Positions 12,074 to 62,068 of a stretch of DNA of 64,000 nucleotides are shown in pieces; positions within the stretch are counted from its first letter, which is position 1; each line of letters opens with the position of its first letter. Source of the DNA: the human T2T-CHM13v2.0 reference genome, Homo sapiens. The stretch lies in NCBI RefSeq assembly GCF_009914755.1, contig NC_060947.1; one strand, given 5' to 3'. The notes under the pieces were generated by a model, which worked only from the letters and a program-made list of their open reading frames with translations, was not told the origin of the DNA and made no database searches. The position numbers were made by a program, and so were the translations under genes.

Positions 12074-12830
<757 letters not shown>

Positions 12831-35156: not shown

Positions 35157-35799
35157 GGAAGGACCTTGAAGGAGGTGCTTGGTTCAACGTGAAACTAGCT
35201 TTGGGGATGACTGGTCAGGAAGTGCATGGGTCATGGAACTTCCAGTCTAGAGGAGAACTAGGAAGATGTGCATGAATGGAGGTCACAGTTATCTTACAGG
35301 AGAATCCTGCAGGAAGTGCATGGGTGTAGATAGTATCCATCTTAGGGGATGTTTTGGCAGCATGTGCATAGACAGAAGGTGCAGTAAGCTTAGAGGAAGA
35401 AATGGCAGGTGTTGCATGGGTGGTGATAGGACCCAGACCATGGAAGGCTATGGTACATGCATGCAGAATGCAGCCATCCTAGGGGAGGGATAAGGGAGTG
35501 GCATCAATGTAAGATTCAATCATCCTGTAAAGGACTTCACAAAAGATGATGTGTTGGAGGATGAATACAGCCTAGAGTAAGACATTGCAGGAGGTTCTCA
35601 TCTAGAAGGCACATTTGGTCTAATGTACCTTTCAATGGGAAGTGCATGAGTGGAAGGAACATCAAGCTTATGGCAGCAGGCATCAAGAAGAACATGAGTG
35701 GGGAAAGCACTCTACCTACAGAAGGAATTAGCAAGAGATGCGTAAGTAGACGGTGCAGCCAGTCTAAGTATGGTCTGATAGGAAGTTCATGGGTAGAAG

Positions 35800-37540
35800 A
35801 ATGAAATTGGACCCTTATATCACAACATGCCCCCAAATTAACTCAATATTGATTAAAGATTCAAATGTGAGATCAGACACTGTGAAACAACTAGAAGAAA
35901 ACAAAAGAGAAACACTACATGACATTGATCTGGACAATGATTTTTTGGATTTTACCCCAAATGTGCAGACAACAAAAGCAAAAATAGACAAATGATAATA
36001 CATCAAACTAAAATAGTTCTGTGCAGCACAGAATACAATTAATAAAAATTTATCTCCCAACAAAATGGGAGAAAATATTTGAAACCATACATTTGATAAG
36101 GGGTTAATATTCAAAATGTATAAGAAACACAAACAACTTTATAGCAAAAAAAAAAAAAAATTAAAAAATGGGGAAAGAACCTGAACAGACATTTCTTAAA
36201 AGAAGACATATAAATGACCAACAGATATATTTAAAAATGCTCAGAATCACTGAACATTAGGGAAATTAAAATTAAAACCACAATGATATATGTCTCATAT
36301 CTATCAGAATGGTTATTATCAAAATGATGAAGGGTAACAAGTGCTGGCGAGGATGTGGAATAAAGGAAACACTTGAACACTAGGTAGGAATGTCAATTAG
36401 TACAGTCATTATGGAAAAATCATATGGAGGTTCTTAAATAAAAGCTAAAAATTGAATTACAATATGACCCAACAATCCTACTTCTTGATATTAACCCAAA
36501 TGATTTGAAATCAGTTTGTCAAAGAGATATCTAAACTCCCATGTTTACTGCAGCCCTATTCAAAACAGTCAAATTATGGAAGCAACTTAAGTGTCTATCA
36601 ACAGATGAATGGATAGGGAAAATATGGTGCACACATGTGTCACTGAATGATAGTGGTACATTCTGAGAAATGTGTTGTTAGGTGATTTTGTTGTTATGCG
36701 ACCATATCATAGAGCATACTTACACAGACCTAGATGGTATAGCCTGCTACACACCCAGGCTATATGGTGTAGCCTATTTCTCCTAGGCTACATACCTGTA
36801 CAGCATGTTACTATACAGAATATTGTAGGTAATTGTAATACAATGATAAGTATTTGTGTATCTAAACATATCTATATATAGAAAAGGTAATGTTGCACTA
36901 CAATGTTATGAGGGCCACCACAACATCACTAGGCAATAGAAATTTTTCAGCTCCATTATGATTTTACGCAACCACTGCCATATATGTGGTCCACCATTGA
37001 CCAAAACACCGTTATGTGGCATATGACGGTACACATACACAATGAAATGCTCTTCAGCCTTAAACTAGAACGAAATTCTAGTATTTGAAACAACATGGAT
37101 GGAATTAGAGAACAGCATGCTAAGTAAAATACACCAGGAACAGAATGACAAATATAGCATATTCTCACTCAAATGTGGACTCTAAAACAATTAAATTCGT
37201 AGAAGCAGAGTGAAGAATGGTGGTTGCAGAGGTTGGAAATTGTGGAAATTGAGGAGATGATGGTCAACAGGTGTAAAGTCTAAGTTAACAAGGGTACCTT
37301 TTTTTGAGATCTATTGCCCAGCATGGTGTATATAGTTAATAATAGCCTCTTGAATATTTCAAAATTGTTAAAGAGTAAATTTCAAATATTCTTATCACAA
37401 AAAAATAAGTATTTCAGGTGATAGATACGTTTAAAAGCTTGATTTCATTATTTCACATTATATTTATAAATTATAACATCACTTTGTACCCCATAAATAT
37501 ATAAAATTATCAATTACCAATTTATAATTAAATAAAAATT
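35800..37540 (+). mobile_element. L1MA 3' portion
   Basis: agaatgaaattggacccttat through ORF2 end and 3'UTR. Confidence 0.88.
36631..37030 (+). mobile_element. Tigger3-type (TcMar) MITE nested in L1MA
   Basis: cattctgagaaatgtgttgttaggtgattttg...acctagatggtatagcct...ccattgaccaaaacaccgttatgtggcatatgac. Confidence 0.8.
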
Positions 37541-37556
37541 ATATAGGTGAAGGGTG

Positions 37557-37732
37557 CATCCTAGGTGAGGTAAAATTATATATATCATTATATATAATTA
37601 TAATTATAAAAGTAATTTTACATATATTTGTAATTATATGTTTTTATATTTATTTTATATTTGTTATATATTTATATATATTTTATATTTATATATTTTA
37701 TATATTTATATAATTTTACCTCACCTAGGATG
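37557..37732. repeat. Perfect 26-bp inverted repeat around a 124-bp AT-rich spacer
   Basis: catcctaggtgaggtaaaattatata (37557-37582) and its exact reverse complement (37707-37732). Confidence 0.95.
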
Positions 37733-38113
37733 TACATGGCAGGAGCTGCTCAGGTAGAAGGAGTATCCAGGCTATAAGAGTATTCTGCAGATAATGCAGG
37801 CCAGATGATACAATCTAAAAAGGGAAGGACATGGAAGGTGGTACATGGGTTCAAGGTGAAACTAGATTTGTGTAAAATTTGGAAAGATGTGCTTGGGTGA
37901 GGGGGAAGTCAGCTTAATGAAAGACCAGGCAGAAAGTACATAGTTGTAAGGAGTTTCAAGCCTAGGGAAGAACAGGGAAAACATTCATGAATAGAGAGGG
38001 CAACCATTCAAGGGGATAATTTGGCAGGGAGTGTATGGGTGGAGGGAGAATTCAGTATGGTGGAGGATTAGGGAGGTGATGCATTTGTGGGGAAAACCAT
38101 CAGCTTAGACTTT

Positions 38114-38321
38114 AATCTTTTGGGTTCTCTGGGCCACATTGAAAGAAGTAGAATTGTCTGGGAGCACACATAAAATGCACTAACGCTAATAATAGCTGAT
38201 GATCTTTAAAAATTCACAAAAGAAATTATAATGTTTTAAGAAAGTTTACAAATTTGTGTTGGGCCTCATTCAAAACCGTCCTGGGCCGCATGTGGCCCTT
38301 AGGCCACGGGTTGGAAGCTTG
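38114..38321 (+). mobile_element. MER30 (hAT-Charlie)
   Basis: ctgggccacattgaaagaag...aagaaagtttacaaatttgtgttgggcc...ctgggccgcatgtggccc...gggttgga. Confidence 0.8.
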
Positions 38322-39029
38322 GCTTAAAGTAAGACATGGCAGAATGTTTATGGTCGGAGAGGCCATCAGATCTAGAAAAGGATTTGGGAGGAGATGCATT
38401 AGTGAAAGGTACAGCCAGCCCACCATAGGACAGAACAGGAGGTTCCAGGGTGGAAGACACAGTCCACTTATAGGAAAATCAGGAAGAAATGAACAGTGGA
38501 TAGGTCATTGCACATATGAAAGGATATGATAGCAGTGAGCGGATGTTAAATGCAGCCAGTCTAGAGAAATAGCAGTCGCAGATGCATGGGTTAATAACCA
38601 GGAGGTGCATGAGTTGAAGGTGCAGCCAGGCTATGGGAGGACCAAGTAGGATATGCATCATTGGATGTTGCAGCCAGCCTGTGTCAGACACTAGCAGGAG
38701 GTGCACGGGACTAGTGAACATCTAGGCTAAGTGAGATCTTGGCAATGGGCACTAGGGAAGAAGGAACATTCAGCCTATCACAGAAACAAGTTCATGATTC
38801 ATGGGTGAAAGAAACATCTAACCAAATGGTAGACCAGAATGTAGTTCATGGGTGGAGGGATAAACTAACCTGGTAGAAGACCAGGCAGTACATGTGGAAG
38901 TGGAGGTTATATTCAGCAGAGGGAAGGCCACGGGAAGTATAGAAGTGAAGCATGCAGCTAGCATAATGGAGGACATAGAGGGAGGTAAATGGGTGTAGAA
39001 AAGATCTAAGCTAGATGAGTATTCTGATG

Positions 39030-40141
39030 TATCGGGGGACATTCAGCCAGATATTGGGTGAAATTCGCCCCCGATATTTTACATAGGTTCTTTTCTATTT
39101 TCCTTAAGTGTCGGCCAGTCTGAGAAATAAAGGGACAGAGTACAAAAGAGAGAAATTTTAAAGCTGGGTGTCCAGGGGAGACATCACATGTCGGCAGGTT
39201 CTGTGATGCCCCCTGAGCCTTAAAACCAGCAAGTTTTTATTAGCAATTTTCAAAAGGGGAGGGAGTGTAGGAACACGGTGTGAGTCACAGAGATCACATG
39301 CTTCACAAGGTAATAAGATATCACAAGGTAAATGGAGGCAGGGTGAGATCACAGGACCACAGGACCGGGGTGAAATTATAATTGCTAATGAAGTTTTGTG
39401 CATGCATTGTCATTGATAACATCTTATCAGGAAACAGGGTTTGAGAGCAGACAACCAGTCTGACCAAAATTTATTAGGCAGGAATTTCCTCGTCCTAATA
39501 AGCCTGGGAGCTCTACGGGAGACTGGGGCTTATTTCATCCCTACAGCTTCGACCATAAAAGACAGCCGCCCCTGAAGCGGCCATTTTAGAGGCCTACCCT
39601 CAGGGATGCATTCTCTTTCTCAGGGATGTTCCTTGCTGAGAAAAAGAATTCAGTGATATTTCTCCCATTTGCTTTTGAAGGAAGAGAAATATGGCTCTGT
39701 TCCACCCGGCTCACCGGCGGTCAGAGTGTAAGGTTATCTCTCTTGTTCCCTGAACATTGCTGTTATCCTGTTCTTTTTTCAAGGTGCGCAGATTTCATAT
39801 TGTTCAAACACACATGCTCTACAAAAAATTTGTGCAGTTAATGCAATCATCACAGGGTCTTGAGGCGACATACATCCTCCTCATCTTAGGAAGATGACGG
39901 GATTAAGAGATTAAAGTAAAGACAGGCATAGGAAATCACAAGGGTATTGATTGGGGAAGTGATAAGTGTCCATGAGATCTTCACAATTTATGTTCAGAGA
40001 TTGCAGTAAAGACAGGCATAAGAAATTATAAAAGTATTAATTTGGGGAATTAATAAATGTCCATGAAATCTTCACAATTCATGTTCTTCTGCCATGGCTT
40101 CAGCTGGTCCCTCCATTCGGGGTCCCTGACTTCCCACAACA
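39030..40141 (-). mobile_element. MER11 solo LTR (ERVK/HERV-K11) with 6-bp TSD
   Basis: Reverse complement starts tgttgtgggaagtcagggacccc; TSD CTGATG at 39024-39029 and 40142-40147. Confidence 0.92.
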
Positions 40142-41102
40142 CTGATGAAGGCAAATGGTCTGAGGGGGCAGTCAGAATATGTGGGACATGGCTGGTAGTG
40201 CATGAGTTATGGGTGCAGCAAGTCTTGGGAGGATATGGCAGGAGATTAGGCATGAAGGCAGCCTAGGGGACAACTTGGAAGAAAATGCATAGGTGTCAAG
40301 AGCTTCATGCCTAGGGAAAGATTAGGATGACTTTCATGAATGAAAGGGAGAGTCACCAAAGGAGATTCCAGTAGTAAGTGCATAGGTGGGAGGCATTCAG
40401 ATTAGGGGAGGATTTGCAAGAAGATTCATTAAAAGAGGTTGAAACCAGCTTAAGGGAGGACATGGGAAAATGTCCATGGATGGCAAAGGCATCAAACTTA
40501 TGGTAGGAATCAGGAGGAGGGGCATTATTGCACAGAGTAGCCAGCCTAGGGCAGGACATTTCCATAGCTGTCTGTGTGCAAAATGCAGCCAGCCTCAGGG
40601 AAGATCATCAAGAAGTGAATGGTGGCTAGGTCATCCAATATATGAAAGGACGTGGGTGTAAAATGCAGCCAGCTTAGGGAAGTACCACCAGAAGGTGCAT
40701 GGGTGAGGTCTCAGCCAGCACAGGGAAGGTTATGTCAGGAAGTGCATGGGTGAAAAGTATAGCCAAGCTATCATAAAGCCGGGTAGGATGTGTGTGGTTG
40801 GAAGGTAAAATCCACCAGGAGGTTCAAGGTGAGAGGAAGCTTCCAGATTAAGTGAGGTCTCAGCAAGAGGTGCAAAAGAGGAACATACAGTCTATGGTAG
40901 GACAGAGTGGTCAGATAATGGGTGGAGGAAACATCCAGCCAGAGGGAAGACCAGAAGTTTATGAGTGGAGGGTTCAGTCAGTCTAAAAACATGCCAGGGT
41001 GTGTATATGCAGGCTGCAGCCATATTAGGGGAGGTGTTAGAAGATGATATACACGTGGAGGGTGCAAACAACCGAGGGGCTGGCATGGTTGGAAGTGCAT
41101 GG

Positions 41103-41685
41103 TGTGAAAAGAAAATAATACCTCAGGAACTCAAACTCACTATATCAAGGGAAAAGTTAAGCTTGGGAACTGAGTCATGCAAAAATCTAACTTTCTTTTG
41201 TTCCTAAACATATAGCAGCAAAGAAAGAAGGCCACGTATCTCCCCAGGTGACTTCTCTCACAAATTTCTTACAAGGAAATTCCTTGCAGGCTCCAAAATC
41301 TTTACCACCTAAAATAGAGTTGTGTTTAATTTCACCCTAACAATGTGAATTAACAGCTTATCTTCACATGTATGAGACAAAGACAAGACCAGAAATCATC
41401 CCTCTACCCACCTTAACAGAAATGCATATTTGACTTCTTCCTCTACTCTACATTATCTAGAATGCAGATATAAAGAACACTAGACGAATGCATAATTGAC
41501 TATTCTTTCTCTGCTACTCCCTATTTCCCCTTTAAATATTGAAATATTCAAAACCCTCTTTGGAAAAAGTGCGGACCACAGATTTTACTGTGACTTTTGT
41601 CTCTTTTTCCTGGGTGTGTCCTCAATCTTGGAAAAATAAACCTCTAAATTGATTGAGACCTGTTTCAGACACATTTTGGTATACA
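41103..41685 (+). mobile_element. MER4-family solo LTR (ERV1)
   Basis: tgtgaaaagaaaataa...gggaaaagttaagcttgggaactgagtca...aataaacctctaaattgattgagacctg...taca; flanks atgg/ttgg. Confidence 0.8.
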
Positions 41686-44194
41686 TTGGGAAGAGGGAAC
41701 ATCCAGCAAAAAAGGAGGTAGTTGCAAAAATGCATGGGTGGAGAAAATATCCAGTCACTAGTAGGATCAGGTGGGCAGTTCATTGGTAGTTAGAGAATCC
41801 AGGCTAATGGAGGAAATGGCAGCAGTTGCAGTATAGGAAAGGGAAGTAAGCTTAGGGGAAAACCTGCAGAAAGTGCCTACATAAAATATGCAGTGAGAAC
41901 CACCAAGAAGTGCATGAGTACAAGTGAGACAATCACCGGTAGGTTCAAGTATAGAGGGATCAGAAAGCCTAGGGAAGACTAGGCAGGAGATGCATTAGTG
42001 GAGGGAGCATGCAGTCTAATGGTGGACATAGCAGGAAGTTAAAGGTTTGTGGGAAGTATTCCAGTTTCTAAACCAGCAGCATGTGAGTCAGAGGAGGGAG
42101 CAGAGGGTTCATGGGAAGAGGTAGCATTCATCCTAAGGTAGAATTGGTAAAAACTGCATGCATATAGGAAGGAACAATTCCATACACAGACCGAGCAGGT
42201 ATTATATATGTAGAGGATGCAGCCTTATTATGAGTGGAATCAAAAGGATCTGCAAACATGGAGAAGACAGCCAGGAGAATTGGCTATAAGTACATGGTAA
42301 AGGAGGCATCCAACCAAGGTGGGGAATCTGTGGGTTTATATATGCAGGGTGCAGCAAGAATAAGATAGGATTCAGCAGACAGTGCAAGGGTGGAGAATAC
42401 ACTCAATCTAGGGGGAAAAAGTTTCAGGTGGTGTATGGTTGGAGAGTGAAACTAGCCAAAGAGAGGTACATAGGTGGAAGAAACATGTAGCCCTATAAAA
42501 GGATATGGGAATAAGTACATGGCTGGAGGAAGCATCCACCCTAGGGGTAGTCTTGGCAGGAGTTGCATGGATGGAGTATTCAGTGAGTATAGGGACAGAT
42601 ATGGCTATAAGCTCATGGGTAATGGAGCAGCCATTATAGGGTAGGACCTAGCAGGAAATGCCTGAGTCAAGGTTGCAGCCAGATTTAAGTACAGGGCAGA
42701 AGGCACATATGTGCAGGGGACATCTAGCTTAGGAGTGACACTAAAGGATATTTATGGATGTACAGTCTTGAGAAGCAGTCACCAGGAAGTGCATAGATCA
42801 AATGAGCATCTATCTTAGAGTTGGACACAGTCAGAGCTCTATGGATGCAGCCAACTTAGGAAGGACCTGGCAGAAAGTACATCGGTGGAATGTAGCCAGT
42901 CTAGTGAAGGGCCTAGCAGGAACTGTATTTTGGAGTGTTCATCCTGCCTGGGAAAAATACTAGGCAAAAAATATGTGAATGGAGGGAGCACAGAACAGAG
43001 GTGAGGACATTGCAATAAATCCATAAGTGGAGAAAACATCCAGTCTAGGGTAAGACTCAGCGGGCAATGTATGGGTGGAAGGAGCATTCCACCTAGGAGA
43101 GGACTCAGCAAGAGGTTCGTTGGTGAAAAGTGCCACCAGCCTAGCAGAGGACACAGCAAAATGCAGAGTTTTAGAGACTTTCTCTCCTTGGGAAGAAGTA
43201 GGTGAGATATATTAACAGATGAGGGTGCATCCATCGTAAGGTAAAATCTGGTGGGAGATGTATTGTTGGAGGGAGCATGGGAGGATAAGCATGGTTTGGG
43301 ATGCATGGCTGGTGTTGCATGATGTAGGGTGGACCTAGCCTAGGGGTCAGCCCCTCAGTAAGTGCATAGTAGAAAGGAGAATCAATCCTTGAAAAGGACC
43401 TAGCAGGAGATACAGAAGAGGAAGCATTCAGGTTAGAAGAGGGCTTCATAGAAAGTTCATTAGTAGGTGGTTATACAGGCCCAAGGGAGAATGTGGCAAG
43501 TAGTTCATAGTTGGAGCATACAGTCAGCCTAGGAGAGAATATAGCAGGAAGTGAATAAGTGGAGGGAGAATCCTTTCAAAGAAAACTCAGCAGGAGTGGT
43601 ATAGCATTCTTCTAGAGGGTAAACTGACAAGACATGCATGGGAAGCAGTTGCATCCAGACTGAGGGAGGAGTAAGAAGGGGTCTTAGTGCAGAAAATAGC
43701 CATTGTTAGGGAGGACCCTGCAGGAAGTGCATGAGTATCAGATGCAATAAGCCTCGAGGATGATTCGGAAGGAGATGCAAAGCTGGAAGTTTCAGCCTTT
43801 AATTTTAAAGAATTCATAATCTAATATATTAATACCATGTGGAGGTAAGAAAACCTTACATCCTCACACAATCATAACTGAAGGTGTTTCCAAATTATAG
43901 ACATGTAGACATGCAGAAATAGAGAAATAGAGCATTTAATTTCAATTTTACAAATTTCAGCCATGATTCAAGAGTAAACACAGAAACAGTAAAAATCCCT
44001 GGTACAGATATCCAGTAGTTGTTTCCTTCCCAAGGAGCATGAAATTCTTCATTGGTTTGAGCTGAAAAATAGACAGAACAATTGACGCAACAGACTCTGT
44101 TTTCTCTCACTCAAAAAAGAACAGATCTCTACAAACTATCAATCTATTTAGAAAATATCCAAATGGTCAGATCATAAAACCAATTCTCACCACA

Positions 44195-44725
44195 CGCCCA
44201 AGCAAATGCACTTTTAGGTATATACACAAGACAATCAAAGATACACGTTCATACAAAAACTTGCACACAAGTGCTTATAGCAGCATTATTTATAATACCC
44301 AAAAGGCAGAAACAACCCTAATGCCCATCAACTAATGAATTGATTAAAAAATGTGATTTATGCATATAATGGTCTATTTTATAGTCATAAAAATGAATAA
44401 AGTACTGATACACACTATAATGTGAATGAACCTTGAAACATTATACTAAATGAAAGAAGCTAAATTTCAAAAGGCCACATATTGTGTTGTCCCATTTACA
44501 TAAAATGCCTACAATAAGCAAATCCGTAAAGATAGAAAGTAGATTAATTTTTGCCAGGAGCTTGTGGGGAGATGGGAATAGGAGTGACCGCTTAACAGTC
44601 TGAAATCTGATAGGGATGAAAATTGTGAATGTAGTGTAGTAATGGACACTGAATTGTACACTTCAAATAGTTAAATTGATAAATTTTATGTTATGTGAAC
44701 TTAATTAAAAAGTAAAGTAAATACA
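44195..44725 (+). mobile_element. L1MB 3' end
   Basis: aaaaacttgcacacaagtgcttatagcagcattatt...gatagaaagtagatta...aaattttatgttatgtgaa. Confidence 0.8.
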
Positions 44726-45533
44726 AAGCCAAAAACTCAATTCCCAACCATGGTTTTCAACAATGGGAAAAACTTATTGGCTGTAAAATAAACCAAAAAC
44801 AAAACAAAACAAAAATGAACCAAAAGCAAAACACTAAATTAGCATAGAGGAAAACACAAATTATAAAAACAGAGTCAACAAAGTACTATTGGTGAATTAG
44901 ATTCACATAGGAGAGTCAATACAACACATGCTGGGCTTCAAACTTGCATGTGTGTAGTGCGCTTCTGTCATCAAAGTTTACATGGTTCTAGTAGGTAAAA
45001 CAATTGGACATATCAGTGTGTCCTACAAAACAGGTAAAGATAATTATCAAGAGTGTAAAATCATGACACTCACACAAATGTGAGCACGTTAAAATATTTA
45101 TCACATATGGAAATTGGCAGATATTATAACCAGTATAATGGAGAATCCAAAGAACAGAAACATGCATACTGATCAGGAATAGTGAATGGAATATGTCAGT
45201 GGAGGCAAAACTGGTTAGTGTAGTGTGTATTGGTCTGGGGAGACTGAACCTACCGTTGAGGTCTCTAAGTTGTGCATGTCTCTCAGTGACCTACAACTTA
45301 CAAACGGATGTAAAAGAGCTCAAAGACAATGCAGGACTAGAATCAGATAGATTACATGGAGTTGTATCCTATGAACAAGGAAAAGGTTTTCATTGAAACA
45401 CACATTTTTTGCTAGAATGTTAAAATCAAGTAGATAGTTAGCATTCCCTTAAAAAGAAGTTCCAGTTACTAGGGTGACCAGATTCCTCTCATGGGCATTT
45501 CTAGGCTGAGGCCTGATCACGGCCCAGTGGACA

Positions 45534-45608
45534 CCAATGACATCACAAAGTGGAGGTTGTCACTAAGGCAACTGATGACCAGTGAGGGGCTGGAGCACAG
45601 GGGTATAG
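45534..45608 (+). promoter_or_regulatory. Candidate H2A.L promoter: CCAAT overlapping CRE-like TGACATCA, plus weak TATA
   Basis: CCAAT 45534-45538, TGACATCA 45538-45545 (one transition from TGACGTCA), TATAG 45604-45608, 90-160 bp before the ATG. Short motifs, supported only by position. Confidence 0.45.
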
Positions 45609-45696
45609 TGGGCTGCAGTAAGCACTGGCACCTTGAGAGACTCAGGCCAGCAGAAAAATCAAGCTGTGACAACCGGGGCAAAACCCAGCAAACATC

Positions 45697-46296
45697 ATGG
45701 CTGGAAACAAACACAGTCGCAGCTCCTGTAAGCCTAGAAGACAGTGCCTTTCCCGTTCCAGAAGAGCGGAGCTGCAGTTTCCTGTTAGCCACATGGAACG
45801 CTGCCTGCGAGAAGGTCAGTATGCCCGGCACCTGAGCTCAACCACACCTGTTTTCCTGGCTGCTGTTCTCGAGTACCTGACAGCCAACATCCTGGAACAG
45901 GCAGGCAAGGAGGCCCAGAACAGCCACAGGGTGTGCATCACCCCAGAACACCTGAAGAGAGCACTGCAAAAGAATGAGCAGCTAAGATGGATCTTGGAGG
46001 AGGAAGATGACATCCACTCTCAGGAAGAAGAAATGCCCCAACCTGAGGAGGAGGAGGAGGAGGACGAGAGAATGGAGGAGGAGGAAGAGGAGAAAAAGGA
46101 GGAGGAGGAGAAGGAGGAGGAGGAGGATGAGAGAATGGAGGAGGAGGAAGAGGAGAAAAAGGAGGAGGAGGAGAAGAAGGAGGAGAAGGAGAAGGAGGAG
46201 GAGAAGGAGAAGAAGAAGAAGAAGGGAGGATTCCTGAGTTTCAGAGCTGTGCAGGACTTCATCAGCAACCTCTTCCAGCTGCTAAAATTCCCATAG
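45697..46296 (+). CDS. H2AL1Q: Short histone H2A variant, H2A.L class, with extended Glu/Lys-rich C-terminal tail (199 aa, intronless)
   Basis: SRSRRAELQFPV, VFLAAVLEYLTANILEQAG and ITPEHL..ALQKNEQL histone fold; reduced acidic patch (E61N, D90N, E92Q equivalents); good Kozak context (aacatcATGG). H2A.L class is secure. H2AL1Q rather than H2AL3 is from recall and from the absence of H2AP nearby. Confidence 0.85.
   Translation: MAGNKHSRSSCKPRRQCLSRSRRAELQFPVSHMERCLREGQYARHLSSTTPVFLAAVLEYLTANILEQAGKEAQNSHRVCITPEHLKRALQKNEQLRWILEEEDDIHSQEEEMPQPEEEEEEDERMEEEEEEKKEEEEKEEEEDERMEEEEEEKKEEEEKKEEKEKEEEKEKKKKKGGFLSFRAVQDFISNLFQLLKFP
46051..46176 (+). repeat. 63-bp in-frame tandem duplication within a (GAG/AAG)n tract
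   Basis: 46051-46113 and 46114-46176 differ at one synonymous site (gac/gat); each encodes EEEEDERMEEEEEEKKEEEEK. Confidence 0.95.
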
Positions 46297-46332
46297 ATGA
46301 AAGACCCCAGGTTGCTTCCATCTGCCCAAGCT

Positions 46333-46338
46333 ATTAAA
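46333..46338 (+). terminator. Candidate polyadenylation signal ATTAAA for the H2A.L gene
   Basis: 37 nt after the stop; no histone stem-loop downstream, consistent with a replication-independent variant. Confidence 0.55.
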
Positions 46339-48404: not shown

Positions 48405-48510
48405 TAGTATCCATTTTTACAGATGTGGACACCAAGGTTCAGAGATGTTAATTAGCTCACTCAGTCACATGACAAGTATGTATAGCATAGTGGGGGCAAG
48501 AGCCCAGCCT
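48405..48510 (-). mobile_element. MIR fragment
   Basis: tatccatttttacagatgtggacaccaaggttcagagatgttaa core. Confidence 0.65.
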
Positions 48511-51220: not shown

Positions 51221-51224
51221 TCAC

Positions 51225-54200
51225 AGAAAGTGTATGGCCAGCAACAACATCCTTTTTCTCTCTCTGCTTCTCCTTGTGAGTGACCCTCTGTGGCCCTATG
51301 TGACACACCACGCCTCTTGTCCTCTGGGGAACTGTGAGTAATAAACACTTCTTTCAAAGGCAGTTATCTTCTTGTCTATCATCTTGCCATACCTAATTAT
51401 AATAAAACATATCTCGAGTACATTTTTAAACAATTGGTGCATTGAGCAGGGTAGTTTGGTGATTGGTGAGGATGACATGCCTCTAGACTGCTCTTGGCTT
51501 ACTAACTGAATCCAACAGAGAGTAAATACTGCCTGGAATGGCACTGCTGGCTTGTATTTTAGCAGCTGCCATTGTGTTGTGACTGTCAGGTACTGCTCTG
51601 ATTCTCCAGTCTAAATTATGGTAGAGTTCAAAAAGCTGAGTCGTCCCTGAGCAACTGTCCTTAGAGTGCTGTAGTCTGGGTAAAGAAGTCTCCAGTTGAC
51701 TTCTTATGTATTTACAATGTGTCCAGAAGTGACTATGGTAACTGGCTATTGTACTATGTGAAGGTTGTCCAGAAGGGACAATAGTGTGAAATAGTGTATC
51801 ACAAGACCAAGAGCTTTGATTTTAGAAACAAGCATAAGAACAAACCAGGCAGTGCCACAGTTGCCCTCATGGAACTAGACTCCAAACCTGGGGAGACTGA
51901 CTGGGACACCGTAGAACAGGAGATGCCACCTATAGGCAGGACCACAACACCAAAACACTGCCACAAGTAGTAAACAACCAAAGAATAAAAACCACTGGAA
52001 AGAGGAGCGAATAGGAAAACAAGGCAGAGACTGAGTTGGGACCTTTTCCTAATATGCAGTTACCACCTTTTGAGACACTATAGGACTCTAAAACATCATC
52101 CCCAGACAAACATATGTATTAGAGACATGGGCATCTCTCATGAAAAAAAAAATTAAAATGGGCCAGCCTGCTTATTATAAACTCCAACAACCAAAAAACC
52201 TGCTAGATACCTTTGAAACTCATGCAGCAGGGGAAGTTCCCCTCTCTTTACTTCAATTTGGTCCAAAATAGTGGATAGGAGATGCCCCACTGAGACGAAG
52301 AAAGGCACTTCCAGTTCCTAGTTAATGGGTTCCTAATATCATGTCCTGACCTTCAACAATGGCAGCCACCTAACTCCCTCCTGAAGGAGACAGCAGCTCC
52401 CCAAAGCTTGTCTCACTGCCTGGGGAAAATCACCGACATACTACCAAAGTTTTCATTGAAGCTCAAAGAATAGCCAACATTTTCTGGTCCTTTTAGGTAC
52501 AGGGATACAGATAACAGTTACTCTGGGTATCCCATCTCTTTTCAAATATATATGTATATATATACATATATATTTGCAACCTATTTAAAATTCAGGGCAT
52601 ATTGGGTCACCCCATTAAGGGCATATGGGTTCCACTTGATGCTAAAATGGGATCTCTTAGCTAAATTCCTTGTGATATTCCCTCTGTCTCTGGCCCATCT
52701 AGTCATAAGCATGAACACCAAACACGTTAGGGCCACCTCTTAAATTGGAACATGCCAAAATCCGCACCACTTGCTATAAGACATGCTCAAGGAGAGATCA
52801 TAGTCCCTCTGCCTCCCCTTAAAATTGTCAAGAAGACTCAACACAAGCTATGACAATGTGCAGCTTGACTCAGGCCTATTATTTTAATCTTTTAAAAGAT
52901 AGAATTGTGGTTCCTATCATCTCTCTTTTTAATTGCAGTATCTGATCAAAGCAAAAGGCAGACAAACAAGAATGGCCTAAGTATAGATTACTGCCACCTC
53001 AATGCATTTGTTCTGTCCATGGAGGCACCTTTTCCTAACATTATTGAAGTTATTAGTATCAGGGTTCACCTAGTGATTTACTTGTGGTAACACATCTAGT
53101 CAATATTTTCTACTCAACATCCATTGCCAAAGATTCACAGCCACGTTATGCCTTCTCCTTTGAGGACACACAATATACATTCACTTGATTATCTATAGAC
53201 TACCTCAATAGCCTGGCCATAGCACATGACTCTGGAGGAAGGACTTATAATTCATCAATTTACAGCATTCCCACTTTTGGCACTATGTAGATGACATCTT
53301 ACCTAGGAGACCTTCTCAAGATAATGTTACACAGGGCTTACATACTCTTACACATCACCTCCAAGATAGGAAATATACATGAATAAAATACAGGGACCTG
53401 CAAAGATGATAAAATTATTGTATATCTTGTGGTCATCAGAGGGTTCTTCCATTCCTGGTTCAGTAAAACACGAATTACTCACCCTCTTCATGGTACCACA
53501 GACACTTAAACAGGCCCAAGATCTCCTGAGCCTCTTTACCTTTCAAGACCAACACATCTCACATGTATTCAGTATACTTGGACCCACATATGAGGTCATA
53601 TGCAAGTCAAACTTCCTCCATTAAGGCCTCTCACAACAAATCTTAATAGTCAGATAACTTTACAGTAGGCATTGACCTTGGTTCCCTTGGGATCCAACTT
53701 TTAAATCAAGGCTTTGGCTACAAAGGACTATGCCTCTTGGAGCTTCTGCATCAGGCATGGTTTTAAGTGGTTGCCCATGGGTTTTTGGAATAAGTAACTT
53801 CCTCAAATGGCAGATATTCACCTCTCAAACAACAAATTCTGTCCCTTCTGGAAACTGAGGCCCTAATTGGCTCAATTCTATTTGGCATCCAGACACAAAT
53901 CCTTATCATGCCTTAAGTCAAGACTCCATGCCAAGAGGCTAGGCATGGCCACAGAATCCTCTTTGGTTAAGTGGAAATAGTAATTTAGAGATTCAGTTAA
54001 GCCTGATGCCACAGGACTTTCCAAACTTCTGAAGAATTGGCTTCCCATGTGCTCAGTCCCTTGGCCATGCCTATTAAGGAGGTGGAGGTATACACCATGT
54101 CATTCCTAGTAGTGATCTAGGGAGCTCCTTGAGATCAAATGTCTGGCATAGGAAGTCAGTATGCCTCACCAATGGCAGGGCCACCATCCCACATGGTGGG

Positions 54201-54965
54201 AATCAGTAGTGAGTGGTGGCATACCACACTGCTTCTGGTTCCTCTATCACAAGGAATAGACATGAGGGTTGGCCCAATTGGCAGAGTTTGAGGCTGTCTA
54301 CCTGATTTTTCAGGATGCCCTGCATTGCAAATTGCCTGAGATTTGTTTGTTGACTGATTCCCGCATGGTCGTCATTGGGTCAGAAAAATTGAAGCAAGAT
54401 AATTTTACCATTCAGGGAAGGTCTTTGTGGGCTATCTCATATGGCAGACATTACTTCATCCCCCATACTTATTCTTGTTTTGCACATCTCTGCACATATC
54501 AAATCAAATAAATCAGAATCACATTATAATTCTATCACAGACAGCTTAGCAAGAAATAAATTCACTGTACTAATACATGGATCTGCCTCTCCCAGATAAT
54601 CTCCATTGTCTGCTTTTGTTCATGGCCAGATAAGCATATGAACCCTAGGGACACCTAGGGTCCCAGGCTACTTTGGGAACAAAGGAAAGACTTCCTTTAT
54701 AAGGTTTCCAGACATCAAAGTTGCCCAAATTAGCTGTAATCTGTGTACCTTTACCAAACACTGGCCTTTATCATCTGTAGATACAATTTCTCGGGGCATG
54801 AGGCCATATAGTCAGTGACAATTTGATTCTATTGGGCCTCTGCCACTCTCTGCTGGTGCCACCTGATATGCTTTTATCATGAATTACACATATATGGGTT
54901 TGCTGTTAGCCTTCCACTCCGGGCATTCTAATTCTGAGTCTACTATTTAGGACCTTACTAGGTTG
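51225..54965 (+). mobile_element. Class III (ERVL-related) provirus remnant: partial LTR, PBS, gag-pro-pol truncated within integrase
   Basis: LTR with AATAAA ending aaca at 51432; PBS tggtgcattg at 51435; RT HYVDDIL at 53281-53301; RNase H AQLAEFEAV..LLTDS (ORF 54269); integrase *QFDSIGPLP near 54816. Confidence 0.82.
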
Positions 54966-54984
54966 GTCCTTACTAGGTTGGTTC

Positions 54985-57900
54985 CTTGATCATCCTTCCA
55001 GTTCCTGCAGACTTGCATCCCTGACATGTCCTTAACTTGGCTGGCTGTACTCTCCCACTCTGCACCTCCTGCCAAGTATTCTTAGGCTATCTGCACCATC
55101 CACCCACGCACCTATTTATGGGCCTTTGATGCTTCCTCCACCCATGCATTTCCTGCATATTCCTCCGACAAGGCTGTATAATGCTTTTACTTCTGCACCT
55201 CCTGCCATGTTTTCCCTTAGACTTGCTATATTCTCTGCTTATGAATCTCTTGCCAGGTCCTCTCTGAGAGTGGCTGCATCCTGCACAAACATACCTACTT
55301 CTGAATCCTATCCTAGGCTGAATACCCCTTCCACCCTTTCACTTCATGTCAGTATTTTTCTAGACTTGTTGTACTCTCCAACAATCCACTTTGTGCCATG
55401 TCTTCCCTGAAGTTGGCTGCGCCCTCCCATAATTACTCAATCCTGTATACCCACCACCCCCACCCCAGGATGAATTCTGAGGTAGAATGTATGCCATTCA
55501 CATCCGTGCACATCCTGCCAGATTTTCTCCTAGGATGTCTGCACACTTCACTCACGTTCCTTTTACTGAATCTTCCCCTATGCATGGTACTCCTTCCACC
55601 ATTCAACCGCCTGGATGTCCTCACATCTGCTTACTGCATCCTGCATCCACACACCTCCTGCCAAGTCTTCCCTTACACTGGCAGCATCCTCCACTCATGA
55701 ACTTCAGGCCAGGTTCTTCCATATGATGGCTGCATTGTCAACAATGTACCTCTTCTCAAGTCCTCCCTTAGACTAGACATTACCTTTTCCCTTGCACTGC
55801 ATACTAGTCATTCTCTAGGCTCCCTGCACCCTCCACATATACACATTCTGCTGCAGATAGCGTTATGTTGATAATCTCACCACCCACACATGTTCTGCCA
55901 TGCCCTCTTCACTAGGCTAGATGCTCCCTCCTCCCATGCACATCATGCTGAATTATCAAATTTGGCTCCATTACCAACCCTTGAAATTAACATTTAACCC
56001 TCCAATAGTTTAGATACAAAGAATATCCTTGCATTTTTTGCTAGAAACCCTCCTACTCCAGCTTCACTCTCTGTTGATGCACTTCCTACAGGTTTCTCTG
56101 TGAGGCTAGCTTCACATTTCCTCATGCAAATCCAGCAATGTCCAACTGACAATGCAATTACTGCTAGTTAGTTCCCAGACTGGCTACACCCTCCGAACCA
56201 TGCACTTCTTGGTGCACCAAACTTCAGGCTGGCCTCACTCTTAAGCTTCCTGATGGGTCCTCCCCGAGGCTGGTGCATGCTGTAGTCATAATTTTCCTGA
56301 CTACTCTCCCTTTGACTTGCTGAAAATGCCACAAATGCACTTAGGACTGAGTACTCCCTTAGCCTGGATCTCCCTCACTCACAGAATTCTTGCCATGTCC
56401 TTGCTTAGGCTTTACCCTCTCCTAAACCCCCTAAACCTCCTATGGGGTTCCCCCCTAGGCTGCCTTTTCCTACCTCAGTTGCACCTCCTGAGTGCCTTAC
56501 TATAGTGTGTACATATGCACGGAGTGCACACATACATATAGCACCTGATGGGACCTCCACTAGCCTGGATGTTCCCTCTACATGCCATATCCTCCTTTAT
56601 ACTGCGAGTTTCCTACACCCTTTCATTCCAGCCAGAATGTATTTATTATAAACTCATAAACCTACTCCAATGTTATTCCATAAGCTTTCTGTACCCTCCA
56701 CCTATATTTTTCCTAACAAGTTATACCATTGGCAATCCACCCTCTCCACCCAAATTTCTACCAAATCATCCCCTTGACCAGATTCTCTTTCCTCCCACAA
56801 ACATCCTGCCATGTCCTAACCAAGGCTGGATGTAACCTTGAGCCATCCACTATTCTCCGATTCCTTCTGTATGCTAGAAATCTTCTCTAATGATGTTCTC
56901 TCCAACCATTCATATAACACTGAGTCCTCTCCTAGGTTGGCTCATCCTCTTCAGATACCATCTTCCCAAGTCTCCACTAGGTTGCATGGCCCCTCCACCC
57001 ACATACTTCATGCTGATTCTAACCCTAGGCTTAATGCTCCCACCTCCCATGCATTTCTTGATGAGTTCTTCCTAGGTTTGCTGCACCATCTTTCATATAC
57101 TCAATGCTGAGTCCTCCATTATTCTGGATCCTTCCTCCACCAATGTCATGCCAAAATCTAGGCTGATTACTCTTTCTACTAATGCATTTATTCCACCACA
57201 CACCACCCATGCAATTTCCTCCAGGTTCTCAACTATACTGGATGTATCCTTCACTTCTGCACTTCATGTGGAATATTTTCCTGATCTGGCTCCAACATGC
57301 ACATCTTGCCATGTTCTCCCTTATGCTGGCTGTATCATTCTCACTGTACCTTCTTCCTACTCCTTTCTTATGCTAGATAGACACTCCAACCATACGCTTC
57401 CTGAACGATTATTTCTTAGCCTGGCTGCACTATGCACCCACGCACTTCCTACTGATTCCTGCTTTACGCTGGCTGCACCTTTCACCCAAGCAATACTGTC
57501 ACTTCCTACACTAGAAATTCTCTGCACTGCACAAATGTACTTCCTATAGAGCTCAAACCTAGGCTGGCTGGAGTCTTTGATAATGTACTTTCCCCTAGTC
57601 TTCCTCTAAGCTGGTTACTACCTCCACATATGTACCTTGAATATCCTGCCTAGTCCTCTCCTAGACTAGCCATACCCTTCATCCATACACTTCTTGTTCC
57701 GGGCCTAATCTGATTGTTCTCTCATGCACCCTATAACAAGTCCTACCTGTGCTGGATGCTCCCTCTAGCAATGTATATCCTGCCATGTCCTAACCTATGC
57801 ACCTCCCCCTGAGCCTTCTACTAGACTGGATGCTCCTTTCACTCATACACTTCCTGCAATATGCTCTCCTAGGCTAGATGTTCCCTCCTTCCTTGCACAT

Positions 57901-60900
57901 TCTAGTGAATTCTTCCTAAGGGTGGATGTTTCTAATTCCCATGTATATTCTTCTGTATCTTCTCCTAGTCTGGGCTCTTCTGTGCAACTAGTTCTGACTG
58001 CTCTTCATTGCTGGCTGCTCCAATTACCCATGTACTTACTGAATTCATTCATAGGCTGGATGTTCTCTCCACCCACACACTTCTTGTCAGGTCTTGCATT
58101 GGGATACCTACATCATTTAGCCATGTACCTTCTGCTATATCATTCCCTAGACTGACTGCAACTTCCACTCCACTTATGCACATTCTGCCCTTCACTACTC
58201 TAAACAGGGGTAGTGAGTTGAATGGTGACCCTCAGAAAGATATGTCCATGTTCTAATCTCCAGAGTCTGTGAATATAATCTTATTTGGAGAAAATATACT
58301 TGCAGATGTAATTATTTTAAAGATCCCTAAGATGAGATCCTTCTAGATTATCTGAGTGAGCCCTAAATCCAATGGAAAATATCCTTATAAAAGAAAGGCA
58401 GAGGGAGATTTGACACAGACAGAGGAAGAGAAGACACATGAAGGCAGTGTGACCATGGAGAAAGAGATTGGGGTGATGCAGCCAAGTAATCTGAGAAGTA
58501 GTCATAGCCACCAGAAGCTATAAGAGGCAAGGAAACATTCAACCCTAGAGATTTTGGAGGGAGCATGGCCCTGCCAACACTTGATTTCAGACTTCTAGCA
58601 TCCCAAACTATGAGATAATACATTTCTGCTGTTTTAAGCTAACGAGTTTTTGGTAATTTGTCACAGCAGCCCGAGGAAACTAATACAGAAAGCTTCATTC
58701 TATACTCCTGCACCTCAGCCCAAGTCCTCTCCTAGACTAGTTGATCCCTCCATCCTTAAACCTCCTGTCAACTGTCACTTAGGGTGGCTGCAGCCACCAT
58801 TCATGCATGCTGCCTGCTGAATCCTTCCCTAGCCCCTCTGCACTTTCATCTTATACACTTCCCACCAAGGCCTCTGTTCAGCAGGGATGCCCCATAACAC
58901 CTGCATTGCAAGCTCCACACATATATCTGTGGATTATCCCCTAGACTAGATGCATTTTGCATCCATGCACTCTCAGTCATAGCCTCTCCCAGACAGGATG
59001 CTCACTTCACTTATGCACTTCCTGCTGGGTTCTTTGTTAAGCTGGCTGCATCCTGCTTCCATGCATAACCTAACACGTCCTCCCTTAGGCAGGTAGCACA
59101 TTCCAATCATAATACACCCCTAGGATGGCTTCACTCTTTTCCCATATACCTCCTACTGGCTGTTTCCCTATGCTGGCAGCACATTCCACCAATTAACTTC
59201 CTTTAATGTCTTGTTCTAGGTTTAATGTTCCCTGCACTGATGTACCCCCTACCCAGTCCTCCCCCTGTTTGGTTGGACTTTTAATCAATTCCTTCCAGGT
59301 TCTCCCTAGACTGGCTCCTCATACCACTCCTTCACTTTCTGCTGGGCCCTTCCTTATATTGGTGTACTTTATGCACCGACTGCTGTATAGATAGGAGTAT
59401 ATCTTAGAGTGGCTGTTTCTTTACCCATGTCCCTCAGGCAAATACTTGCCCTATCTAAATGCTCCCTCCACTTGTCAATATCATGGAAAATCCTCCCATT
59501 GGTAGCCTGCACCCTCCACCCAGGCTTCTCCTGTTTTGCCTTACCTACACTGAAAGATCCCTCAATTCAAGAACTTCCTACCGGGTTATCTCTAACTTAG
59601 CCGCTTTCTCCATCCATCCACCCATTTCCAAGCTCTTCTTTAGAATTGATGCTCTCTCCACCCATGCACATTCTGCCTGCCCTTTCTCAGGTCTACCTGT
59701 ACCCTGCATCCATGCTTTCCTTATAGTACCTCATTTAGGCTTCTTGCTTCCATAGCCCAAGCACTTCTTGCAGGGGCCATTACATGGGTGACCGCACCCT
59801 GCATCTCTGCACATCTTTCCATGACTTTCTCTATGCTGAATGTGACTTCCATCCATCCACTTTCCAGTGGTCCTTCTCTAGGTCTGATGCTTTCTATATG
59901 CATGCACTTCTTGCCTGGACATTCCCTGATATAGCTGAACCTTAAAACCATGCCAGGGCTTCTCCTAGGCTGGAGGCTTCTTTCTCCCTTGAACATTCTG
60001 CTAAGATCTCCCCTGGGTTGGATATTACTTCCATCTATGCACCAAGTAACAATTGTCCTTGATTCTGGCTGCAACTTGCACTCATACATCTCCTGCCATG
60101 TGATTCCACAATCTGGTTGAACCCTTCACCCATGCATGTTCTGCCTGATTGTTATCTGAGCTGGTGGCATCAGGCACACATACACCTTTTTACTATATCT
60201 TTTCTTATGCTGGTTGCACCTGGAACCTATGCATCCTTGAGCTCCTGGGTGAGCTGCACCTTCACCCTTGCTCCGCCTTCCAAGTTTCCCACAAAGCTGG
60301 ATTCTCCCTTTCCCCATAAACATCTTGCCAGTTCCTCCTCTAAGCTGGCTACAACCTGTATACATGCATTCCCTCTTTTGCCCTCAAGTTAGCTTGGTGT
60401 TTGCCCTACCCATGCACTACTTCCTCGGTGGTGAGCTAGGCTGTATGGTCTCTCTGCCACTGCACTCATGCGGATTACTCCTACTAGTTTGGAAGTGTCC
60501 TCAATCATGCCCCTTATAGGATGTCATTCCTTATGCTGGCTGCACAATCAATGTATAAACCCCTTGCCAATACCTCCTTTGGGCTAAATGCTCCTTTGAA
60601 TCGTGCAAATATCTCTCTGTTCTCTCCTAGGCTGACTACACCCAGCACACATTAGTCTTATGCTGTGTCTGCTCTTAGACTGGTTTCATTCTTGATCAAT
60701 GCACATATCCGAGTACATTTGGCTTTCAACAAACTGCACCACTGCCCTCCATGCCATGTATTTTACTGGATTACATCTCCTGCCATACCCTTCTTTAGGC
60801 TGGCTGAAACCACCACAAATGTATCTTCCATGGTTCCTATCCTAGACTGACTACATTCTGTATCCATGCCCACCTGTCATTTATTTCCCTGGGCAAGATG

Positions 60901-62050
60901 TTATTTCTTCCACCTCTACACCTCTGGTCAGCTTTACTGCTAGGCTGGCTGTACCATGCACCATTGCAACTCCTGCTGAGACTTTATCTAGGCTGGCTAT
61001 TTCATCCACTCATACACTTTCTACTTATTACTTTCCTAGGTTGGCTGCACCCTGTACCAGCGCACCTCTTAGTATATCCTACTCTAGACTGACTTAACCT
61101 TTAACTATATACTACCTGCAAGATTTGCTCTATAATGAATGGCCCCTCCTCCAATACATTTCCTGCACGTCCTCATCTAGCCCTAGTGATTTCACTCCTG
61201 CATTTCTTGCCAGATCATCCCATAGGCTGAATATACCTTTCACCCATGAAAGACCTGCCAAGTGTCCTCTAGGTTGAATTCTTCATCCTCTCATGCCTGT
61301 TCTGCCAGGTCCTGCCTTAGGTTGTATGCTCCCTCCAACCATACACTTCTTGCTGATTCTCGTCAGGCTGTTTCCAACTTACATAATATAAATTCTACTG
61401 TTTCCTTCCCTAGGCTGACTATATCCTCCAAACATGCACCTCCTGCTATTCTCTCTTAGGTTAGATGCCCCAAACAATTATGCATGCCCTGAATATTTCT
61501 CACCTTGGGATGGAAGCTCCCTGAAACCATACCCTTCCTACCATATCCTCTCATAGACAATCTGCACATTCCACCCCTTAACACCCCTACCAAATCTTAC
61601 CTCTGGATGCTCTCTCTACCAGTGGATTTTCTACTGTGACTTCCCCTGATTTGGTCATTTCCCCAACCACGATGCTCCTGTTGAATGCTCCACTGGCTAA
61701 TGCTCCCATTCCCAATGCACTTCCTTCCAGGTCCTCTGCTAAGCTAACTGCAATCTGCATCCATACACCTCCTACTATTTCTCCTCCTAAGAAGGCTGCA
61801 TTCTTAATTCTTGCACTACCTTTTTGGTCCTTTTGGCTGACTTTAACTGCATTCCTGAAGATCCTCCCATGTCCTCCCCTAGGCTGGTTACACCCTGCAA
61901 CTGTGCACCTCCTGCCATATCTTCCCCTGGGTAGGTAGTACCTTCCACCTTTGCACTTCCTCTGAGTTTTGCCCTAGGCTGGCTGCACCCCACACCCATG
62001 CAGCCATTATCAGAGGCTTCTTTAGATAGACTCTACTATCTACTCAAGTA
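54985..62050 (-). repeat. Degenerate 48-bp repeat field, block B (inverted relative to A), interrupted by MLT1
   Basis: Consensus on + is cctaggctggctgcaccctccacccatgcacttcctgccaggtcctcc, e.g. unit cctaggctggttacaccctgcaactgtgcacctcctgccatatcttcc at 61878-61925. Confidence 0.88.
58208..58687 (+). mobile_element. MLT1C-like MaLR solo LTR
   Basis: gagttgaatggtgaccctcagaaagatatgtcc...gggagcatggccctgccaacacttgatttcagacttctag...gcagcccgaggaaactaataca. Confidence 0.85.
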
Positions 62051-62068
62051 CCTTTTACTGAGACTTCA

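What the first reader, a model, noticed from the sequence alone, without database searches (positions are those of the whole stretch)
35157..62050. Ancient 48-bp satellite-like field (about 13 kb, order of 250-300 units) around a germline histone gene
Seen: one consensus recurs with ~48-bp period across 27 kb, producing dozens of spurious ORFs with 16-residue periodicity (PRLAAPSTHALPARSS, EDLAGSAWVEGAASLG, GGPGRKCMGGGCSQPR). It is interrupted by L1MA, MLT1C, MER30, MER4, MER11 and an ERV, so it is older than all of them, probably from early eutherian times. I do not recognise it as a named satellite, and it looks too diverged for default tandem-repeat tools. Inference: a fossil satellite, or the remains of a repetitive coding exon, since the unit is a multiple of 3 and the consensus is open in several frames. 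The unit count is a rough estimate.
Basis: partly seen in the sequence, partly recalled or inferred. Interest (0 to 1): 0.75.

Follow-up and report, generated by a model that had tools for sequence, protein, structure and literature searches.

The report
Fossil 48-bp satellite on human X
A 73-kb stretch of the human X chromosome holds about 925 heavily decayed copies of a 48-base repeat, with a second decayed 63-base repeat beside it; it is likely a dead, non-coding satellite that likely stopped turning over before placental mammals diversified, which would make it an unusually old tandem repeat still readable in our DNA.

Summary
The window holds about 274 units (13.3 kb). The field continues beyond it to chrX:36,377,762, for about 924 units (44.8 kb) over 72.6 kb, with an orientation switch at a truncated ERV remnant. 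Units are 65% identical to their consensus and diverged almost star-like. There are two interspersed monomer types, one almost fully decayed CpG, old irregular block duplications and about 0.40 substitutions per site of AT-biased decay. I found no coding signal: indels, codon positions, stops and ORF lengths are neutral-like. Genome-wide pattern searches find no other array and nothing at CER sites. A second fossil array (63 bp, about 85 units) abuts the far end, with a fragment inside the window at 24.8-25.6 kb. The H2AL1Q cassette, an ancestral eutherian locus in the literature, appears to sit inside the array, which suggests an age over 100 My (inferred). Verdict: an apparently undescribed, locus-specific fossil GC-rich mini/satellite with no sign of present function. 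Dfam and the T2T tables could not be checked. Boldest reading (about 10%): a relic of a pseudoautosomal, mo-2-like recombination array frozen when X-Y exchange stopped.

The parts
35157..43797 (+). 48-bp array, G-rich strand on +; seven HMM segments, about 98 units, broken by four inserted elements (35802-37727, 38109-38321, 39027-40154, 41103-41686)
43798..49248 (+). H2A.L cassette lying between array segments of the same orientation (phase 26 to phase 33); homology to the H2AL3 locus starts at 43809
45697..46296 (+). H2AL1Q (H2A.L.1): intact 199-codon ORF, histone fold plus an E/K-rich tail
   Evidence: PF00125, E 6e-8; PMC9526256; PMC5880237
49249..51237 (+). 48-bp array, G-rich strand on +, about 40 units
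51238..55001 (+). Truncated ERV remnant at the strand switch: 3' part of a multicopy LTR, then broken internal sequence with pol-like motifs seen by eye, ending in the integrase-like region
   Evidence: no Pfam hit at E 0.01
55002..62067 (-). 48-bp array, G-rich strand on -, about 135 units; one insert at 58209-58691; best unit 61865-61912 (83% identical to consensus). This block continues outside the window: about 650 more units at chrX:36,334,492-36,377,762 (window-relative 64,492-107,762), followed by the main 63-bp array at chrX:36,378,167-36,384,003 (about 85 units)
   Evidence: outside the window:
24840..25634 (+). Fragment of the 63-bp array inside the window: 6.1 + 2.3 units, 302 and 111 bits (best control 28 bits)
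17091..17196 (+). Two 48-bp units, a younger copy (84/97 identical) of 35266-35362
8767..8847 (-). Isolated 1.7-unit remnant of the 48-bp repeat (58 bits)

Best explanation
The field is a locus-specific array of about 924 decayed 48-bp units that is likely a dead, non-coding GC-rich mini/satellite, likely amplified by unequal exchange and likely frozen before the eutherian radiation. Shown: period, extent, near-star divergence, two interspersed monomer types, irregular old block duplications, an almost lost CpG, roughly strand-symmetric AT-biased decay, the strand switch, and no coding signal. Inferred: (1) growth by unequal crossover or conversion that shuffled the two monomer types; (2) germline methylation, from the CpG loss; (3) turnover faded during the first 15-30% of the decay time and then stopped; (4) TEs, the H2A.L.1 cassette and at least one inversion broke it up afterwards; (5) age over 100 My; (6) no present function, so it now behaves as neutral DNA.
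For: Per-unit identity to consensus is 0.655, sd 0.068 against a binomial 0.069. Pairwise identity is 0.50-0.52 at every lag tested from 1 to 200 units, against 0.51 expected for a star. Columns 20/24 are linked (p 1.7e-37), giving 360 and 340 units of two types among 836, with no run structure. Columns 43-44 read TG 308, CA 210, TA 112, CG 15 of 905. Blocks of 8-25 units exceed the maximum of 20 permutations, with mutually consistent lags 24, 34, 64, 74 and 98; their identity is 0.57-0.65 against 0.511+-0.019 for random blocks, a split at about 0.7-0.85 of the decay time. Distance from the ancestor is 0.397/site, equilibrium GC 0.20, with G>A 0.32 versus C>T 0.27; 0.306 at 40% GC. 87 of 639 indels are multiples of 3. 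G retention is 0.61/0.62/0.62 by codon position. Stop-free stretches of 100+ codons number 6 and 36, against nulls of 4.7-8.0 and 36-39. 0 of 6 array ORFs hit Pfam, 0 of 17 candidates score in the protein search, and Rfam finds nothing in 24000-64000. Locus-specific: 22 of 25 and 5 of 12 genome-wide pattern hits fall in the field, and none of the 10 outside hits is a 48-bp array. Age: three H2A.L loci were present in the eutherian ancestor (PMC5880237 sections 4 and 7), and H2AL1Q is syntenic in mouse, dog, cat and cattle (PMC9526256 passages). Cassette homology to the H2AL3 locus starts 11 bp after the array edge at 70% identity, and 2 x 1.6 kb of H2AL3 flank hold no 48-mer.
Against: No other mammal could be examined, so the age is indirect. 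Phase continuity at the cassette alone (offset +6) has about a 30% chance probability, no target-site duplication is readable there, and the H2AL3 locus is itself rearranged. Part of the 0.40 may be variation that predates the freeze, and the block-pair identities are top hits, so biased upward. Equilibrium GC of 0.20 is lower than the 0.3-0.35 I recall for neutral human DNA and is unexplained. G-strand stops are about 12% fewer than independent columns predict (all three frames), and G-strand stretches of 60+ codons are in excess under single-column shuffles (75 vs 59.9, p 0.007), though not with blocks of 4 or more columns. Both arrays have periods divisible by 3. Pattern searches have low power for small, equally old arrays elsewhere. 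No functional data (ChIP, RNA, conservation) were available.
Confidence: 0.75

Rival explanations
1. A fossil giant coding exon (mucin-like or FAM47-like 16-aa and 21-aa repeats) of an X-linked germline gene that died before the decay began.
For: The periods 48 and 63 are both multiples of 3; 4 of 6 consensus frames are open; neighbouring FAM47 genes carry 36-bp coding repeats, with a weak DNA resemblance to the 48-mer (p 0.0075, noticed by eye first).
Against: No frame bias in indels, codon positions, stops or ORF lengths. The two frames in which most ancestral variants would be synonymous carry a stop in every unit. The FAM47 alignment crosses frames and the HMM finds no 48-mer segment in 7 of 7 FAM47 loci scanned. 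It would require an exon of 45 kb or more. No protein relatives were found.
Confidence: 0.08
2. A relic of a functional recombination array: a GC-rich minisatellite domain of the stem-eutherian pseudoautosomal region that worked like mouse mo-2 and froze when X-Y exchange stopped in this stratum.
For: The ancestral unit is 65% GC and strand-asymmetric, with shuffled variant types. The inferred freeze falls just before the eutherian radiation, when this X-added region is thought to have stopped recombining with Y (own knowledge). The low equilibrium GC fits little biased gene conversion since. The unit contains the chi-like minisatellite motif GCWGGWGG (motif from PMC9069542; match). mo-2 is a ~20-kb array of a 31-bp GC-rich repeat that recruits break-promoting proteins in the mouse PAR (10.1101/536136 passages).
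Against: The motif match is weak (11% and 3% of shuffles). No sequence link to mo-2 was tested. The dates are loose. Any ordinary minisatellite would also lose male exchange when the stratum formed. There is no direct evidence of function.
Confidence: 0.1
3. An already catalogued repeat (a Dfam/Repbase satellite or one of the new T2T arrays) that I could not look up.
For: Hoyt et al. report five new arrays on X, three of them outside PAR1, whose coordinates are in supplements I could not open. Repbase holds unclassified eutherian repeats (PMC5753468).
Against: The named novel arrays (sinope, cyllene, harpalyke) are described as varying in size between two humans, unlike a frozen 65%-identity array. 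None of the 9 chrX entries seen in the Warburton catalogue is at this locus. TRF misses it. No pattern hits at CER sites. Literature searches found no description.
Confidence: 0.12
4. A dead centromeric or pericentromeric satellite of the autosome that became the X-added region.
For: Size, inversions and TE load resemble the ancient alpha-satellite remnants described far from present centromeres (10.1101/2021.07.12.452052 passages).
Against: It occurs at a single locus, has a short GC-rich unit, shows no regular higher-order repeat, and no related arrays were found elsewhere.
Confidence: 0.05

Closest known systems
CER (centromeric repeat, 48 bp)
   Same: Unit length of 48 bp; large arrays with inversions (PMC2588610).
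   Different: CER lies at the chr14, 18 and 22 pericentromeres; neither of two patterns from this repeat hits those sites. This array is interstitial on Xp.
GC-rich hypervariable minisatellites with variant-repeat interspersion
   Same: Short GC-rich, strand-asymmetric unit; two variant types mixed without order; chi-like motif present.
   Different: About 45 kb rather than a few kb (size from own knowledge); frozen and 35% decayed; the full core motif is not matched.
Mouse mo-2 PAR minisatellite
   Same: Tens of kb of a short GC-rich repeat on a sex chromosome; unequal exchange.
   Different: 31-bp unit, active and hypervariable, with a shown function; no homology tested and no function shown here.
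Ancient monomeric alpha-satellite remnants
   Same: Decayed monomeric array with inversions and old TEs, far from the present centromere.
   Different: Different unit and composition; primate age versus an inferred pre-eutherian age.
FAM47 coding repeats (36 bp, Xp21)
   Same: Neighbouring X-linked tandem repeats; weak DNA resemblance.
   Different: In-frame 12-aa repeats in intact ORFs with a 36-bp period; not detected by the 48-mer HMM.

Membership tests
CER satellite | 48-bp unit | tested here: met
CER satellite | Sequence shared with the arrays at the chr14/18/22 pericentromeres | tested here: not met
   0 of 12 and 0 of 25 pattern hits lie at those sites (sites). Indirect: no CER monomer was aligned.
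Tandem satellite/minisatellite array | Head-to-tail units over kilobases | tested here: met
   34 segments, 44,801 bp, longest 5.1 kb
Tandem satellite/minisatellite array | Traces of amplification by unequal exchange | tested here: met
   Block duplications above permutation maxima, with consistent lags
Tandem satellite/minisatellite array | Ongoing homogenisation (neighbours more alike) | tested here: not met
   Flat identity across lags 1-200; one recent two-unit duplication only
Higher-order-repeat satellite | Regular multi-unit period | tested here: not met
   No lag above z 2.7 among 249
Hypervariable GC-rich minisatellite | Core / chi-like motif | tested here: inconclusive
   The chi-like 8-mer is present (11% of shuffles), 9 of 10 core bases match (3%), the full core is absent
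Hypervariable GC-rich minisatellite | Length polymorphism among people | not testable with these tools
   Only one assembly available
Coding VNTR exon | Indels in multiples of 3 | tested here: not met
   87 of 639; 370 are single-base
Coding VNTR exon | Third-position substitution bias and frame-specific stop avoidance | tested here: not met
mo-2-like PAR array | Recruits REC114/MEI4/ANKRD31 and is pseudoautosomal | not testable with these tools
   The locus is X-specific today; its ancestral state is inferred only
LTR-derived satellite | Unit present in the U3 of the adjacent LTR family | tested here: not met
   0 of 11 other LTR copies show a 48-mer upstream of the shared part (best same-strand score 17 bits)
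Catalogued Dfam/Repbase/T2T repeat | Match to a library consensus or annotated coordinates | not testable with these tools
   No Dfam available; supplements of the T2T preprint could not be seen

The most novel reading that the evidence does not exclude
The 48-bp and 63-bp fields are the fossil of a recombination-promoting minisatellite domain of the stem-eutherian pseudoautosomal region, a forerunner in role of mouse mo-2, frozen when X-Y crossing-over ceased in this stratum. They would be a sequence record of a lost PAR and a 900-replicate clock for the date of recombination arrest.
Probability: 0.1. Interest if true: 0.8.

Novelty: new member of a known kind. Interest (0 to 1): 0.45.

Why it matters
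If the age holds, this is a tandem array that has stayed readable for over 100 My, far older than the human satellites I know of (own knowledge). TRF missed it here, so other fossil satellite fields may lie in 'unique' human DNA. About 924 near-independent descendants of one reconstructable 48-mer give an unusually precise record of mutation spectrum and CpG decay on the eutherian X (equilibrium GC about 0.20). The field also explains dozens of spurious periodic ORFs and brackets the arrival of the H2A.L.1 gene. It makes one open idea testable: whether minisatellite domains like mouse mo-2 marked older pseudoautosomal regions.

Tried and rejected
Coding origin: indel, codon-position, stop and ORF tests were negative. 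A first ORF null showed an excess of long frames (6 vs 2.4 and 36 vs 20.4). I rejected it because it scattered gap characters and so invented frameshifts; with gaps held fixed the excess disappears. Origin from the adjacent LTR: no 48-mer in 11 other copies. Homology of the 48-mer and 63-mer: p 0.21. Homology with the FAM47C 36-mer: p 0.0075 but post hoc, out of frame, one of three comparisons, and not seen by the HMM. A 24-bp ancestral half-unit: the lag-24 peak is real but half-unit identity is only 0.46 (p 0.058), so it is suggestive only. Regular higher-order repeat: none. Other loci: 10 of 10 outside pattern hits were read at about 620 bp each; one is an unrelated 18-bp minisatellite on chr17, one an 83-bp match on Xq without periodicity. 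BLAST-type genome searches with array pieces returned only the locus itself, but have little power at 51% pairwise identity. The 3' part of the ERV was not matched elsewhere in the 264 kb, since 51238-55001 hits only itself, so which block was inverted is unresolved. Rfam: none. A four-tract G3 quadruplex pattern is absent from the majority unit. A profile-model search of the whole genome and an ESM Atlas look-up could not be run.
Full report
1. Observation. In 35157-62050, base identity at lag 48 is 0.322 against a median of 0.269 (sd 0.003), with smaller peaks at 24, 96 and 143-144; the first 35 kb has no such peak among its top 15 lags. TRF at minimum score 30 gives 96 rows and no 48-bp array. 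A circular 48-state profile HMM trained on the window finds 13,261 bp and 273.6 unit-equivalents; one segment on the GAG run of H2AL1Q was dropped as a low-complexity artefact. A shuffled 32-kb control gives no segment.

2. Extent. I read 80 kb upstream and 120 kb downstream. The field runs from window 35,157 to window-relative 107,762 (chrX:36,305,157-36,377,762): 34 segments, 44,801 bp, 924 unit-equivalents, of which 145 have the G-rich strand on + and 779 on -. The strand switches at 51238-55001. That stretch holds the 3' part of a multicopy LTR (40 matches among 40 scored candidates; about 550 bp long at other loci) and a broken internal region with pol-like motifs visible by eye but no Pfam hit. 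It matches nothing else in the 264 kb, so the direction of the inversion is unresolved. Directly beyond the far end lies a second decayed array with a 63-bp unit (window-relative 108,167-114,003; about 85 units; 66-70% identity). A fragment of it lies inside the window at 24,840-25,634 (302 and 111 bits; best control 28). The two units are not detectably homologous (p 0.21). Their decay is similar (0.40 and 0.38 substitutions/site).

3. Anatomy. Units match the consensus at 0.655 with a spread equal to binomial noise. Pairwise identity is flat at 0.50-0.52 from lag 1 to lag 200, against 0.51 for a star, and there is no regular higher-order period. Columns 20 and 24 are linked (p 1.7e-37) and define two monomer types, 360 and 340 of 836 near-full units with 136 unassigned, mixed without runs. 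Columns 43-44 read TG 308, CA 210, TA 112 and CG 15 of 905, the signature of a methylated CpG lost by deamination (inference from established chemistry). Blocks of 8-25 units resemble each other beyond the maximum of 20 permutations, with lags 24, 34, 64, 74 and 98 that add up consistently. Their identity of 0.57-0.65 against 0.511 puts the last detectable duplications at roughly 0.7-0.85 of the decay time (top hits, so biased young). Substitutions are roughly strand-symmetric and strongly AT-ward, with equilibrium GC 0.20; GC has fallen from 65% to 46%.

4. Coding test. The consensus is open in 4 of 6 frames. 87 of 639 indels are multiples of 3 and 370 are single bases. G retention is 0.61, 0.62 and 0.62 by codon position. 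G-strand stops are 9-13% below the independent-column expectation in all three frames, so the deficit is not frame-specific. With gaps fixed, stop-free stretches of 100+ codons number 6 (G strand) and 36 (C strand) against nulls of 4.7-8.0 and 36-39. An excess of 60+ stretches on the G strand (75 vs 59.9, p 0.007) appears only under single-column shuffles and vanishes with blocks of 4 or more. An earlier null that suggested an excess was flawed. 0 of 6 array ORFs submitted (of 20 ORFs listed, several outside the array) hit Pfam, and one protein search scored 0 of 17 candidates. The FAM47 36-bp repeats nearby show only a weak, out-of-frame resemblance.

5. Uniqueness. A 21-base pattern with up to 2 mismatches gives 12 genome hits, 5 in the field; a 24-base pattern with up to 3 gives 25, 22 in the field; the reversed controls give 0. 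All 10 outside hits were read at about 620 bp, and none is a 48-bp array. None lies at the CER sites listed in PMC2588610 (passages). Small arrays of equal age elsewhere could be missed.

6. Age. Across 18 same-orientation gaps of 60 bp or more (one row spanning the strand switch was dropped), the phase resumes within 14 bp in 16 (p 0.009, post hoc threshold). Several overlaps are of target-duplication size, and one Alu duplication is readable. The distance from the ancestor, standardised to 40% GC, is 0.31 per site. In-region calibrators are 0.19-0.24 per copy for the old flank of the H2A.L duplication, about 0.18 for L1 pairs, 0.13 for an LTR pair and 0.07 for the two-unit copy at 17 kb. H2AL1Q is an intact 199-codon ORF and the most telomeric of three H2A.L loci here. 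Molaro et al. (PMC5880237; sections 4, 6, 7 and passages) place three H2A.L genes, numbered from the telomere, in the eutherian ancestor over 100 My ago, and find the hominoid copies evolving neutrally. Seal et al. (PMC9526256, passages) give synteny in mouse, dog, cat and cattle. The cassette has same-orientation array on both sides, its homology to the H2AL3 locus begins 11 bp after the array edge, and 3.2 kb of H2AL3 flank has no 48-mer. I infer that the array was there first. This is indirect: the phase match at this one gap is weak, and no other genome was seen.

7. Mechanism. Most likely (0.75), a GC-rich tandem repeat expanded locally by unequal exchange, was methylated, lost its turnover before the eutherian radiation, and has since decayed neutrally while insertions and an inversion broke it up. 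One candidate cause of the freeze is the end of X-Y recombination in the X-added region (own knowledge of strata; untested). The bolder version, a functional mo-2-like PAR array (mo-2 as described in 10.1101/536136, abstract and passages), has only circumstantial support, and the chi-like motif match is weak.

8. Literature. Searches for H2AL1Q, 48-bp/Xp21/satellite/ancient, short H2A synteny and repeats, degenerate or ancient X repeats, CFAP47/FAM47C with tandem repeat, EUTREP and the new T2T array names returned no description of this field; for most hits I saw listings and abstract starts only. I read passages and section 5 of Hoyt et al. (10.1101/2021.07.12.451456) and passages of Kojima, ULTRA, Altemose et al. 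and Warburton et al.. The Hoyt supplements, which hold array coordinates, and Dfam were not visible, so prior cataloguing is not excluded (about 12%). TE family names in this report are recalled, not tested.

9. Verdict. A real, apparently undescribed, locus-specific fossil satellite, three times larger than the window shows, with a second fossil array beside it. New member of a known kind; interest 0.45.

Noticed in passing
   Followed up: yes
window 37554-37735: Fold-back palindrome: 27-bp arms (26 of 27 complementary) made partly of array sequence around an AT-rich core, just after the L1 tail; resembles a small palindromic AT-rich repeat.
   Followed up: partly
window 17091-17196: A 97-bp copy (87% identical) of array units 35266-35362, placed 18 kb away in unrelated sequence and much younger than the array.
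   Followed up: partly
window 12250-12800: Degenerate pentamer-rich (ATTCC-like) tract resembling decayed HSat2/3-type simple satellite.
   Followed up: no
window 45697-46296: H2AL1Q is labelled pseudogene in RefSeq but has an intact 199-codon ORF with an expanded E/K tail. Gene and 3' flank are 86-91% identical to the H2AL3 locus while the 5' flank is 65-70%, consistent with later gene conversion.
   Followed up: yes
window 46821-47827 vs G000:C23:29182697-29183709: A 1-kb piece of the H2A.L 3' flank matches a site 7 Mb away on Xp at 75%.
   Followed up: no
window-relative 78155-78495 (L004): Seven 48-bp units are locally inverted inside the minus-strand block.
   Followed up: no
L052 (G000:C17:28420335-28420958): An unrelated 18-bp G-rich minisatellite that shares a short motif with the 48-mer, likely by convergence.
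   Followed up: partly
whole 48-bp field: Equilibrium GC of about 0.20 from 924 replicates is lower than the values I recall for neutral human DNA; unexplained.
   Followed up: partly
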